Below, piece by piece: positions 26,768 to 28,032 of a DNA stretch of 64,000 nt. This stretch comes from Escherichia coli. Lineage in GTDB: Bacteria > Pseudomonadota > Gammaproteobacteria > Enterobacterales > Enterobacteriaceae. The stretch lies in the NCBI RefSeq assembly GCF_003019035.1, contig NZ_CP027447.1. One strand, written 5' to 3'. The position numbers and the translations under genes are program-made. The notes beneath the pieces are model-generated. The model was not told where the DNA came from, ran no database searches, and worked only from the letters and a program-made list of their open reading frames with translations. Every line of letters begins with the position of its first letter. Within the stretch, counting starts at the first letter, position 1.

Positions 26768-27883
26768 ATGGTTACGCCAGTAAGCATCAGCAATTACATA
26801 TCTCTTCCTGATGATTTTCCCGTACGTAATATTGCACCGCAGGTAAAAGAAGTTTTAAAGGATTTCATTGATGCACTTAGTACAATAATATGTGATGAAG
26901 AATGGCGCACGTCTTTAAACATCAACTCAGCCACAAAAAAGATATTTAATAACCTTGACAACTTATCATATATTCAGAGGACTTCTTTTCGGGGTAACGA
27001 CACGCTATACAATGAAAAGGTTCAGTTTAAACTCACTTATCCCGTCAAGAATGGAAGACACAAAGAAAATATTGAATTTCAGGTAGTAATAAATTTAAGC
27101 CCTATTTATTTAGATAATTTCCGCCATGATGGGGAAATTAATATTTTTTGCGCTCCCAACCCAAAGCCTGTCACTATGGGGCGCGTATTTCAGACCGGCG
27201 TCGAGCGTGTGCTCTTTCTGTTTCTGAATGACTTTATAGAACAATTTCCAATAATCAACCCTGGCGTTCCTATCAAAAGAGCGCATACGCCACATATTGA
27301 ACCCCTGCATCCGGATCACCATACCGCTGCAGATTACATACGCCAGTTTGATTTGCTTGTCCTGAATTTTATCTCTCGCGGTAATTTTGTCATACTCCCC
27401 CGATTATGGAATAACTCTGAGGTTCACAGATGGTTCGGGAATAAAGAACCTAACTTGCTCACCGCTATTCTCGACATAACGGACAGCGAATTAAAAGAGG
27501 ATTTATTGCAAAGTCTGATGGATTCACTAGGTTCTAACAAACATGTATTACCCGAAGTCTGCATCTGCTTTTTATCCCTTTTAGCAGAACAAGATTTTCC
27601 ACATTTTCAGGAGTTGTTTTTATTTTTCGCCAATATGTTATTGCACTATCACCAATTTATGAAACCCAATGAAAGTGATTTGATTGACGTGTTGATGCCA
27701 GCATCATTAAGTGATGATAAAATTATCAAACATATGGCGCGCAAGACCCTCAAACTTTTTGTAAAAAATGAAACGCCGCCAAAAGTTACTCATGAAGACC
27801 TGGTGAAAAACAGGCCTCGCTCCCCTGTCAGACCACCTATACCCGCAACCTCCAAAACGCCAGACCTCCCTGAACGTCATTAA
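26768..27883 (+). CDS. yneK: YneK, uncharacterised 371-aa protein
   Basis: Long ORF with plausible start context; AT-rich codon usage; no domain I can recognise. Confidence 0.7.
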   Translation: MVTPVSISNYISLPDDFPVRNIAPQVKEVLKDFIDALSTIICDEEWRTSLNINSATKKIFNNLDNLSYIQRTSFRGNDTLYNEKVQFKLTYPVKNGRHKENIEFQVVINLSPIYLDNFRHDGEINIFCAPNPKPVTMGRVFQTGVERVLFLFLNDFIEQFPIINPGVPIKRAHTPHIEPLHPDHHTAADYIRQFDLLVLNFISRGNFVILPRLWNNSEVHRWFGNKEPNLLTAILDITDSELKEDLLQSLMDSLGSNKHVLPEVCICFLSLLAEQDFPHFQELFLFFANMLLHYHQFMKPNESDLIDVLMPASLSDDKIIKHMARKTLKLFVKNETPPKVTHEDLVKNRPRSPVRPPIPATSKTPDLPERH

Positions 27884-28032
27884 ACCGTGATGTGACCGAC
27901 TCTCTGACGCGTGAAAGAATCAGCGTCAGAGAAACGGAAAACGCGATCCAGATCACAAATGCATTGTATTCACATCATTAACCGTTTTAAGATCATTTCA
28001 TCACTTTTTCGCAACTCACCCGATAATCTGTT

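What the first reader, a model, noticed from the sequence alone, without database searches (positions are those of the whole stretch)
26768..27931. yneK: conserved ORF of unknown function followed by a U-less hairpin
The 371-aa product has no domain or motif I can recognise and AT-rich codon usage compared with its neighbours. It is followed by a 9-bp perfect stem (CTCTGACGC / GCGTCAGAG, 27902-27931) with no U-tract, more like a protein-binding or RNA-processing element than an intrinsic terminator.
Basis: seen in the sequence. Interest (0 to 1): 0.3.

Follow-up and report, generated by a model that had tools for sequence, protein, structure and literature searches.

The report
Orphan gene yneK and its hairpin
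yneK is a real but dispensable protein gene found only in E. coli and E. albertii. It sits on a 1.25-kb AT-rich insertion that ends in its own U-less RNA hairpin, most likely an mRNA 3'-end protector; this is interesting background but not a surprise.

Summary
A 371-codon ORF (26768-27883, +) with 39.7% GC, against 52-55% for its neighbours, is followed by a perfect inverted repeat (27902-27910 / 27923-27931) with no T-tract. The window is E. coli and the gene is the annotated, uncharacterised yneK.

- **Homology:** Exhaustive sequence and fold searches found no relatives outside Escherichia. No domain and no informative fold match were found.
- **Coding status:** It is a genuine coding gene, with dN/dS of 0.10-0.23. 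It is disrupted in at least 41% of 5,426 complete E. coli genomes by deletions, a T-run frameshift or an O157 nonsense codon.
- **Origin:** yneK, its conserved upstream region and the hairpin form one ~1.25-kb insertion between yneJ(ptrR) and ydeA, bounded by a 10-13-bp direct repeat. Four other Escherichia species, Salmonella and Citrobacter have the empty site with one repeat copy and no hairpin.
- **Age:** Neutral-site divergence between E. coli and E. albertii is the same in yneK (0.52) and its flanks (0.52-0.53), so the insertion is old.
- **Hairpin:** The arms are 18/18 identical between the two species, while the adjacent spacer is 43% identical. The element is single-copy and has no Rfam match.

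Best reading: a 3'-end-protecting stem-loop of a Rho-terminated transcript that also separates yneK from the ydeA promoter. This is inferred, not shown. YneK's biochemical role remains unknown.

The parts
26664..26676 (.). Left copy of the direct repeat that bounds the insertion (GACTCGGCAAAAC). It lies inside the 3' end of yneJ/ptrR.
   Evidence: it aligns with the single copy in empty sites (GAAGCGGCAAAAT in L004, GAAACGGCAAAAT in L006). E. albertii has CGACAAAACG perfectly repeated on both sides. YneJ protein similarity to yneK-less species stops at residues 282-286 of 293.
26677..26767 (+). Left end of the inserted DNA. It supplies the last four codons and stop of yneJ (to 26690), then the 77-bp yneK upstream region with a GGGG Shine-Dalgarno-like run before the ATG.
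   Evidence: The 77-bp spacer is 83% identical between E. coli and E. albertii, against 52% at neutral 4-fold sites. No hairpin or terminator-like site lies between yneJ and yneK. In vitro gSELEX peaks for NtrC and RpoH holoenzyme map to this spacer (PMC8743547; PMC5493296).
26768..27883 (+). yneK coding sequence: 371 aa, soluble, pI 6.3, no transmembrane segment.
   Evidence: NF033404, 812.7 bits. dN/dS is 0.10-0.23 in all pairwise comparisons, including E. coli vs E. albertii at 0.165. Maximum Kyte-Doolittle 19-residue score is 1.18. No homologues were found outside Escherichia among 1.84 billion representative proteins.
27144..27149 (+). T6 run inside yneK. A 1-bp deletion here (T5) is the shared frameshift of one large group of E. 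coli strains, which includes O104:H4.
   Evidence: The exact T5 38-mer is in 770 of 5,426 genomes and the exact T6 39-mer in 2,969.
27314..27775 (+). Codons 183-336: C-terminal all-alpha domain of nine helices. This is the only part modelled with confidence.
27776..27880 (+). Codons 337-371: proline-rich, basic tail predicted to be disordered. The encoding mRNA is C-rich and G-poor.
   Evidence: pLDDT is below 50 for residues 334-371. C/G ratio is 2.3 for 27780-27883. This region has the highest dN/dS in the gene, 0.29-0.34.
27896..27937 (+). Compound stem-loop in the yneK 3' UTR. It has a 10-bp core (27901-27910 / 27923-27932), an apical 3-bp stem with a 5-nt loop, and an outer 3-bp stem. No U-tract follows.
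   Evidence: -23.7 kcal/mol, z -6.2. The nine core pairs are identical in 8 alleles and in E. albertii (18/18 nt against 52% neutral identity, about 8e-6 by chance), while the stop-to-hairpin spacer is 43% identical. It is single-copy per genome, has no Rfam match, and is absent from every yneK-less site.
27931..27942 (.). Right copy of the direct repeat (GAAACGG-AAAAC). It overlaps the last bases of the hairpin's right arm and outer stem.
   Evidence: Homology to empty sites and to other genera resumes here.
27943..28032 (+). Pre-existing ydeA promoter and 5' UTR; context only, not part of the insertion. Candidate -35/-10 hexamers are TTCACA (27969-27974) and GATCAT (27991-27996). The region is C-rich and G-poor.
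   Evidence: It is conserved from Escherichia to Salmonella and Citrobacter regardless of whether yneK is present. Promoter-like site. C/G ratio is 2.4-2.75 in 78-nt windows starting at 27940-27980.

Best explanation
yneK is a genuine, lineage-restricted accessory protein gene. It arrived as a single-gene, AT-rich insertion of about 1.25 kb between yneJ(ptrR) and ydeA, before E. coli and E. albertii diverged. The insertion brought, or soon gained, its own upstream control region and a 3' stem-loop, and it is bounded by a duplicated 10-13-bp target sequence.

The gene is barely expressed in laboratory K-12. From its AT-richness I infer silencing by H-NS and Rho, as for other foreign DNA. It is dispensable and has been inactivated independently in many lineages.

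The U-less hairpin most likely acts in the RNA. Transcription of yneK, or of yneJ-yneK read-through, is ended by Rho in the C-rich, G-poor stretch just downstream. 3'->5' exonucleases then trim back to the hairpin, which sets and protects the mRNA 3' end and keeps upstream transcription out of the ydeA promoter.

**Shown:**
- the coding constraint
- the restricted distribution
- the insertion boundaries
- the decay of the gene
- the stability and sequence conservation of the hairpin

**Inferred:**
- Rho dependence
- exonuclease trimming
- H-NS silencing

**YneK itself.** Its biochemical role is not known. My weak best guess (about 0.3) is a cytoplasmic protein-interaction or scaffold protein rather than an enzyme, based on the helical-repeat-like C-terminal domain and the disordered proline-rich tail.

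**On the confidence figure.** The 0.6 is a composite: about 0.9 for the account of the gene and the insertion, and about 0.55 for the hairpin's RNA role.
For: **Real gene**
- dN/dS is 0.10-0.23 in every pair, with the N-terminal two-thirds at 0.03-0.12.

**Restricted distribution**
- Only E. coli/Shigella and E. albertii sequences were found among 5.8 billion clusters and 1.84 billion representatives.
- There were no phage matches, and the only plasmid-collection matches were chromosome-sized records or short N-terminal remnants.

**Insertion**
- yneJ is directly followed by ydeA (88-166 bp apart) in four other Escherichia species. The two genes are 93-221 bp apart in the Salmonella and Citrobacter loci examined.
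- The direct repeat is present at both junctions and once in empty sites.
- GC drops by 12-15 points.

**Age**
- 4-fold-site identity between E. coli and E. albertii is 0.52 for yneK, 0.52 for ydeA and 0.53 for yneJ.

**Decay**
- The internal 39-mer is missing from 1,135 of 5,426 genomes.
- The T5 frameshift is in at least 770 genomes and the O157 nonsense codon in 309.
- Further independent lesions are a SEV4 frameshift, a ~1-kb internal deletion, a whole-gene deletion and an E. albertii type-strain nonsense codon.

**Hairpin**
- It is stable.
- The arms are 18/18 conserved, against 43% for the adjacent spacer and 9/14 for the loop.
- The 181-nt hairpin-plus-ydeA-upstream stretch is retained in 5,417 of 5,426 genomes, even where yneK is deleted.
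- It is the first structured element after yneJ-yneK and lies 30 bp before the ydeA -35 hexamer.
- C/G is 2.4-2.75 immediately downstream.

**Published precedent**
- Rho-dependent transcripts end just after stable stem-loops without U-tracts, with rut sites immediately downstream (PMC6061677).
- Rho and H-NS silence AT-rich acquired DNA (review PMC12360218).

**Expression**
- Expression is low, and rises in a yneJ deletion strain (PMC9068703). I read that rise as read-through with no terminator between the two genes.
Against: **Weak points for the hairpin's RNA role**
- No 3' end has been mapped at the hairpin. yneK does not appear in the Term-seq tables of Adams et al. 2021, probably because it is hardly transcribed.
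- There is no significant covariation: 8 of 16 pairs never vary, one pair changes on both sides, and shuffles reach the observed score in 76 of 500 trials. An RNA role therefore rests on conservation and stability, which a DNA-level role would explain equally well.
- The C-rich downstream stretch is the ancestral ydeA promoter and 5' UTR. It was not shaped by yneK.

**Weak points for the wider model**
- Absence from four Escherichia species that sit closer to E. coli than E. albertii does requires clean losses or recombination.
- Nothing tested here points to a specific function for the protein.
Confidence: 0.6

Rival explanations
1. The hairpin is a weak, non-canonical intrinsic terminator. 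RNA polymerase would stop directly at the stem-loop despite the missing U-tract, perhaps helped by NusA or NusG.
For: The stem is GC-containing and stable (-23.7 kcal/mol), and it sits 13 nt (outer stem) to 18 nt (10-bp core) after the stop codon and before the next promoter. Some other genera carry canonical terminators in the same yneJ-ydeA spacer, for example GCCCGcttcCGGGC followed by a T-run in L014, so termination is wanted here.
Against: The 3' flank is AAACGGAAAACG, with no T in the first 18 nt. The terminator scan found nothing. By established knowledge of intrinsic termination, the U-tract is needed for efficient release in E. coli.
Confidence: 0.15
2. The palindrome works at the DNA level as a binding site for a dimeric protein, such as a regulator of yneK or ydeA, or a nucleoid protein.
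For: Both 9-nt half-sites are invariant, and their 14-bp spacing is constant across all alleles and in E. albertii, while the spacer sequence drifts. No covariation favours RNA over DNA.
Against: The conserved ydeA upstream region in genera without yneK lacks the palindrome, so ydeA control does not need it. I could not match 9-bp half-sites 14 bp apart to any E. coli regulator motif I know (from memory, not tested). One natural variant is a C-to-T change giving a G-U wobble, which an RNA stem tolerates but which alters a DNA half-site (L002).
Confidence: 0.08
3. The hairpin is a leftover of whatever mechanism inserted the cassette, such as a recombination site or element end, and has no present function.
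For: It sits exactly at the right edge of the insertion and overlaps the right direct repeat. It is present only where the insertion is present.
Against: The arms are 18/18 identical after divergence that left neutral sites 52% identical and the neighbouring spacer 43% identical, which indicates continuing selection. There is no attC-type GTTRRRY core, no GTAG or REP signature, no terminal inverted repeat matching the left end, no transposase, and only one copy per genome.
Confidence: 0.12
4. yneK is not a functional gene but a decaying or spurious ORF in foreign AT-rich DNA.
For: It is disrupted in at least 41% of complete E. coli genomes, and in the E. albertii type strain. Expression in K-12 is very low. 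Knock-outs gave no significant effect in the one screen that examined it (PMC12757027).
Against: dN/dS is 0.10-0.23 over a synonymous divergence of 1.2, with no frame-breaking changes in intact alleles from two species. The upstream region is 83% conserved. A 371-codon ORF in 40% GC DNA would not stay open by chance.
Confidence: 0.05

Closest known systems
3'-terminal protective stem-loops of Rho-dependent transcripts (Dar & Sorek 2018, PMC6061677)
   Same: It is an energetically stable stem-loop shortly after the stop codon, not followed by a U-rich tract. A C-rich, G-poor stretch lies immediately downstream, where a rut site is expected.
   Different: No 3' end, Rho dependence or exonuclease trimming has been measured for this transcript. 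The downstream C-rich stretch is also the promoter and 5' UTR of the next gene.
Canonical intrinsic (Rho-independent) terminator
   Same: It is a stem-loop placed between a stop codon and the next promoter.
   Different: It has no U-tract; the tail is A-rich (AAACGGAAAACG). It also has a 12-nt loop region with a bulged apical stem.
Horizontally acquired, H-NS/Rho-silenced AT-rich islands of E. coli (Cardinale 2008; Lucchini/Navarre 2006, as reviewed in PMC12360218)
   Same: GC is 12-15 points below the flanks. It is absent from the orthologous site in relatives, its expression is very low, and it is dispensable.
   Different: It is only 1.25 kb with a single gene and no integrase, tRNA site or mobility gene. 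It is bounded by a 10-13-bp direct repeat and is old enough to share the neutral divergence of its flanks. H-NS occupancy was not checked.
Taxonomically restricted (orphan) genes of Enterobacteriaceae; NCBIfam NF033404 YneK
   Same: The full-length match is 812.7 bits against a cut-off of 40. There is no homologue outside the genus. The protein evolves about five times faster than its neighbours: dN is 0.20, against 0.035-0.045.
   Different: Nothing separates it from that family, and the family itself has no assigned function or fold.
Integron gene cassette (single ORF plus a 3' attC hairpin)
   Same: It is a single ORF followed by an imperfect hairpin at the cassette's 3' edge, and the whole unit is inserted at one point.
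   Different: There are no R''/R' core sites (RYYYAAC / GTTRRRY); the 62 nt after the stop codon contain no GTT. There is no integrase or attI. The unit carries its own upstream region, and a duplicated target sequence flanks it, which integron recombination does not produce.

Membership tests
NCBIfam NF033404 (putative protein YneK, equivalog) | Full-length HMM score above the curated cut-off of 40 bits | tested here: met
   812.7 bits, E 3.4e-245, residues 1-371 matched to profile positions 1-371.
Any Pfam domain family | A match to any Pfam-A model | tested here: not met
   0 families at E<=10. PDB profile search gave a best E of 3.1.
Canonical intrinsic terminator | G+C-containing stem-loop close to the end of the gene | tested here: met
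   10-bp core stem, -23.7 kcal/mol. The outer stem begins 13 nt and the core 18 nt after the stop codon.
Canonical intrinsic terminator | U-tract (at least 5 T in 8) directly after the stem | tested here: not met
   The tail is AAACGGAAAACGCGATCC. The scan found 0 terminator-like sites in 26400-28400.
Protective 3' stem-loop of a Rho-dependent transcript | Stable stem-loop not followed by a U-rich sequence, located at the end of a transcription unit | tested here: met
   No other hairpin lies between yneJ and the ydeA promoter.
Protective 3' stem-loop of a Rho-dependent transcript | C-rich, G-poor rut-like sequence immediately downstream | tested here: inconclusive
   C/G is 2.0-2.75 for 27932-28057. 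However, C content is only about 25%, and the stretch is the ancestral ydeA promoter and 5' UTR.
Protective 3' stem-loop of a Rho-dependent transcript | Steady-state RNA 3' end mapped at the base of the stem, with read-through on Rho inhibition and trimming by PNPase or RNase II | not testable with these tools
   There is no yneK entry in the Term-seq tables available, and the supplements of Dar & Sorek are not held.
Horizontally acquired island | Base composition deviates from the flanking core genes | tested here: met
   GC 0.397 against 0.515-0.545, and GC3 0.395 against 0.54-0.59.
Horizontally acquired island | Absent from the orthologous site in related genomes, with definable junctions | tested here: met
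   Empty sites were found in four Escherichia species, Salmonella and Citrobacter. The direct repeat is at both junctions and single in empty sites.
Horizontally acquired island | Mobility genes or an identifiable donor | tested here: not met
   There is no integrase or transposase ORF. No phage match was found, and the plasmid-collection matches were chromosome-sized records or short remnants. No homologue was found in any other genus.
Horizontally acquired island | H-NS occupancy or silencing | not tested
Only low expression is documented.
Dispersed repeat elements (REP/BIME, ERIC, MITE) | Many copies per genome | tested here: not met
   The median is 1 place per genome across 4,301 genomes. 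There is no Rfam match.
Integron attC site | Inverse-core and core sites RYYYAAC ... GTTRRRY flanking the imperfect hairpin | tested here: not met
   No GTT occurs in 27884-27945 (sequence).
Known anti-phage defence proteins (PADLOC-DB) | A match to any PADLOC model | tested here: not met
   0 families at E<=10.

The most novel reading that the evidence does not exclude
YneK may be the founding member of an Escherichia-only protein family whose N-terminal half has no recognisable fold. It may act in a host-associated niche, either as a colonisation or adherence factor or as a secreted effector. This would fit its weak pangenome association with adherence to bovine recto-anal cells (PMC11540155). 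It would also fit its repeated loss in sampled pathogen strains and in strains carrying the ~1-kb internal deletion (O157:H7, O104:H4, Shigella sonnei). In addition, the unit of upstream region, gene and terminal hairpin, bounded by a 10-16-bp duplication, may be the footprint of an undescribed way of inserting single-gene cassettes.
Probability: 0.1. Interest if true: 0.55.

Novelty: new member of a known kind. Interest (0 to 1): 0.25.

Why it matters
yneK is one of the remaining E. coli K-12 genes with no function, no domain and no relatives, so any firm fact about it narrows the search. This analysis establishes the following.

- It is under real coding constraint.
- It is an old single-gene insertion with defined edges.
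- Natural populations discard it readily. That pattern points to a conditional, niche-specific role rather than housekeeping, and suggests that laboratory K-12 conditions may be the wrong place to look for a phenotype.

The hairpin is a clean, single-copy test case for U-less 3' stem-loops, and it sits directly upstream of the promoter of the ydeA arabinose efflux gene. If it fails to stop read-through, yneJ/yneK transcription would feed into ydeA.

None of this overturns current ideas. It is careful annotation rather than a discovery.

Tried and rejected
**Remote homology: nothing beyond YneK itself or noise**
- Pfam, NCBIfam, PADLOC, PHROGs (best E 0.034 over 40 residues) and PDB sequence profile (E 3.1) were all uninformative.
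- An exhaustive phmmer search of 1.84 billion representatives returned only YneK fragments. The 53-70% identity hits turned out to be error-ridden or frameshifted reads of the same gene, not distant relatives.

**Structure: no usable fold match**
- The full-length AF2 model was poor (pLDDT 52.7), and its Foldseek-PDB hits were meaningless (best E 0.02, TM 0.12).
- The afdb50 library was unavailable.

**Donor search: none found**
- tblastn against phages found nothing. Hits in the plasmid collection were chromosome-sized records or short N-terminal remnants.
- There is no paralogue in the window and no internal repeat in the protein.

**Hairpin**
- There is no Rfam family.
- It is not a dispersed repeat.
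- There is no significant covariation.
- I rejected an integron attC site and a REP/RAYT-type hairpin because their defining motifs are absent.
- I rejected a terminator for an antisense transcript, because the reverse strand also lacks a U-tract.

**Literature**
- No 3'-end entry exists for yneK in the Adams 2021 tables.
- The Dar & Sorek supplements are not held.
- H-NS ChIP papers could not be opened after the paper cap.
- Several 'yneK' hits concern the unrelated Bacillus subtilis gene or author surnames, and the 'b1527' hits were irrelevant.
- A Sharp-Li CAI could not be computed because the index was not installed.
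Full report
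**1. What is there**

The window is E. coli. The stretch 26600-28100 is 100% identical to strain SCU-301 and matches 5,418 of 5,426 complete genomes, where it is annotated ptrR(yneJ) - yneK - ydeA.

The ORF is as described: 26768..27883, + strand, 371 aa. GC falls to 0.37-0.42 across 26600-28000, against 0.50-0.55 on either side.

| Gene | GC | GC3 |
|---|---|---|
| yneJ | 0.545 | 0.541 |
| yneK | 0.397 | 0.395 |
| ydeA | 0.515 | 0.592 |

Rare codons make up 8.1% of yneK, against 1.4-5.4% in the seven neighbouring genes compared.

The inverted repeat CTCTGACGC / GCGTCAGAG is exactly at 27902-27910 / 27923-27931. Folding shows a larger compound hairpin spanning 27896-27937:
- a 10-bp core stem
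- a bulged G followed by a 3-bp apical stem and a 5-nt loop
- a 3-bp outer stem

Its free energy is -23.7 kcal/mol, with z = -6.2 against shuffles. No T-tract follows, and the terminator scan finds nothing. Perfect >=9-bp hairpins are about six times more frequent in the window than in Markov simulations (20 against 3.5). A chance occurrence in this 150-bp spacer is therefore improbable.

**2. The protein has no detectable relatives or known fold**

- **Family libraries:** Pfam returned 0 families. NCBIfam returned only the self-named NF033404 'putative protein YneK'. PADLOC returned 0. PHROGs returned only noise. The PDB profile search gave a best E of 3.1.
- **Word-indexed search:** A search of 5.8 billion clusters returned only E. 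coli/Shigella sequences, an 84%-identity allele, and E. albertii at 68%.
- **Exhaustive search:** A phmmer scan of 1.84 billion representatives returned 47 hits, all fragments of YneK. The low-identity ones are frameshifted or error-laden copies of the same gene.
- **Mobile elements:** There are no phage matches. The plasmid-collection matches are chromosome-sized records or short N-terminal remnants.
- **Physical properties:** The protein is soluble, with pI 6.3 and no transmembrane segment.
- **Full-length model:** AlphaFold2 with the shallow four-sequence alignment gave a poor model (pLDDT 52.7), and Foldseek found nothing usable.

The literature agrees. YneK is uncharacterised and confined to E. 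coli/Shigella, and its knock-out had no significant effect on CAST editing (PMC12757027). A pangenome association with adherence to bovine recto-anal cells is weak, at 42% specificity (PMC11540155).

**3. It is nevertheless a real gene**

Pairwise dN/dS is 0.10-0.23 in all comparisons. That includes E. coli against E. albertii (0.165 at dS 1.2) and the two deep E. coli alleles (0.146 at dS 0.6).

The N-terminal two-thirds is more constrained (0.03-0.12) than the C-terminal third (0.24-0.34). The neighbours are about ten times more constrained: ydeA at 0.01-0.04 and yneJ at 0.05-0.07.

**4. The gene and hairpin are one old insertion**

I fetched 80 loci around yneJ orthologues, one per species. 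yneK is present only in E. coli (L003) and E. albertii (L008).

In four other Escherichia species (L004-L007, including E. whittamii), yneJ is followed directly by ydeA with an 88-166 bp gap. In the Salmonella and Citrobacter loci examined, the gap is 93-221 bp. None of these empty sites contains the hairpin. The conserved ydeA upstream sequence begins right after the hairpin, at about 27938.

Junction alignment shows a duplicated target:

| Location | E. coli | E. albertii |
|---|---|---|
| Left junction | GACTCGGCAAAAC (26664-26676) | CGACAAAACG |
| Right junction | GAAACGG-AAAAC (27931-27942) | CGACAAAACG |

Empty sites carry a single copy, for example GAAACGGCAAAAT. The insertion rewrote the last four codons of yneJ.

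Neutral divergence between E. coli and E. albertii is the same inside and outside the insertion. 4-fold-site identity is 0.52 for yneK, 0.52 for ydeA and 0.53 for yneJ. The insertion therefore predates the split of the two species.

The yneK-less species are as close or closer to E. coli at the flanks, with 4-fold identity of 0.51-0.81. They must have lost the insertion cleanly, possibly by recombination between the direct repeats, or replaced the region by recombination. L007 does show a breakpoint in this very spacer.

No mobility gene or donor was found.

**5. The gene is being lost**

| State, out of 5,426 complete genomes | Genomes |
|---|---|
| Internal 39-mer of yneK present | 4,291 |
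| Internal 39-mer absent (21%) | 1,135 |
| Exact T5 frameshift allele at the T6 run (27144-27149) | at least 770 |
| O157:H7 nonsense allele (codon 263) | 309 |

Sampled loci show the following lesions:
- a ~1-kb internal deletion (L002, L086, L087)
- a deletion running into ydeA (L001)
- secondary frameshifts on top of the T5 allele
- an independent frameshift in SEV4
- a nonsense codon at position 86 in the E. albertii type strain

At least 41% of genomes carry a broken yneK.

By contrast, the 181-nt stretch holding the hairpin and the ydeA upstream region is present in 5,417 genomes.

**6. The hairpin**

It is single-copy and matches no Rfam family. Across eight alleles and E. albertii, the nine core pairs never change.

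| Region, E. coli vs E. albertii | Identity |
|---|---|
| Hairpin arm nucleotides | 18/18 |
| Neutral 4-fold sites | 52% |
| Stop-to-hairpin spacer (with indels) | 43% |
| Hairpin loop | 9/14 |

The arm conservation corresponds to about 8e-6 by chance.

All alleles fold at -19 to -27 kcal/mol. The variants are a C-to-T change giving a G-U wobble, loss of the top pair with gain of a bottom pair in the divergent allele, and different apical 3-bp stems (TGA/TCA against GTG/CAC). Formal covariation is not significant. The evidence for function is therefore conservation and stability, not compensatory change.

The hairpin is the first structured element after yneJ-yneK. It lies 30 bp upstream of the candidate ydeA -35 hexamer. 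The next 80-100 nt have a C/G ratio of 2.0-2.75.

This matches the published picture for Rho-dependent transcripts. Precise steady-state 3' ends lie just after stable stem-loops without U-tracts, which protect against PNPase and RNase II, and rut sites lie immediately downstream (PMC6061677). Rho and H-NS are known to silence AT-rich acquired DNA (PMC12360218).

yneK RNA is scarce, with a base mean of 14.1, and rises 2.78 log2 in a yneJ deletion strain (PMC9068703). I interpret that rise as read-through from yneJ. No 3' end for yneK is listed in the available Term-seq tables, so the mechanism remains an inference.

**7. Rivals**

- **Non-canonical intrinsic terminator (0.15).** This fails on the missing U-tract.
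- **DNA operator (0.08).** This cannot be excluded by covariation, but ydeA control in other genera does not need it, and a wobble variant is tolerated.
- **Relic of the insertion mechanism (0.12).** This fits its position at the edge of the insertion, but not its perfect conservation.
- **Spurious ORF (0.05).** This is contradicted by dN/dS.

**8. Verdict**

yneK is an already annotated orphan gene.

New here are its insertion boundaries with a duplicated target, its age, the scale of its natural inactivation, and the assignment of its hairpin to the class of U-less 3' protective stem-loops.

YneK's biochemical role remains open. My best guess, held weakly, is a non-enzymatic interaction protein with a niche-specific role. 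Interest is modest.

Noticed in passing
L044 5873-6661 (-), L063 5863-6663 (-), L054 5833-8562; compare window 26677-27942: The yneJ-ydeA spacer is a variable slot across Enterobacteriaceae. It is empty in several genera. It holds a PhzF-family gene in Yokenella and Pseudocitrobacter, and PhzF plus GNAT acetyltransferase plus an LDH-like gene in Klebsiella. In E. coli and E. albertii it holds yneK.
   Followed up: partly
L004 5862-5920: Escherichia sp. MOD1-EC7003 lacks yneK but has its own ~57-bp insert, containing short inverted repeats, at the same point just before the single copy of the repeat motif.
   Followed up: no
L007 5001-7161: In the genome labelled E. coli SCPM-O-B-8794, yneJ resembles the L005/L006 group (4-fold identity 0.54 to the window). 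ydeA, by contrast, is E. coli-like (0.79). A recombination breakpoint therefore lies in this spacer.
   Followed up: partly
window 26768-27883 compared with L085 409-1524 and L093 279-1394: E. coli carries two deep yneK alleles, 85% identical at the DNA level with dS 0.6. The adjacent ydeA differs by only dS 0.2. The strains with the ~1-kb internal deletion retain the hairpin type of the divergent allele. This suggests an old polymorphism or introgression confined to the insertion.
   Followed up: partly
window 27284-27337 (YneK residues 173-190): The stretch HTPHIEPL..DHH.AADY is almost invariant from E. coli to E. albertii, although it is predicted to be disordered. It is histidine-rich and could bind a metal or a partner.
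   Followed up: no
window 27944-27959: Two GATC (Dam) sites, GATCCAGATCAC, sit just upstream of the ydeA -35 region. They are conserved within Escherichia, with related sequences in Citrobacter and Salmonella. This may be a regulatory site for ydeA.
   Followed up: no
L003 (SMXE01000224.1), L040 (CACSKA010000003.1): A contig labelled Caldithrix sp. MAG is E. coli DNA: YneJ 98%, YneK 95% and YdeA 99.7% identical to the window. A contig labelled Chryseobacterium sp. carries an enterobacterial yneJ-ydeA region. Both look like contamination or mislabelling.
   Followed up: no
window 26691-26767: The yneK upstream spacer is 83% identical to that of E. albertii, with three perfectly conserved blocks of 17, 17 and 11 nt, yet the scan found no good sigma-70 promoter. 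In vitro gSELEX peaks for NtrC and RpoH holoenzyme map here.
   Followed up: partly
L008 5934-5960: The 380-aa E. albertii YneK annotation begins at an upstream ATG that is out of frame in E. coli. The shared ATG at the position of window 26768 is the likely true start.
   Followed up: partly
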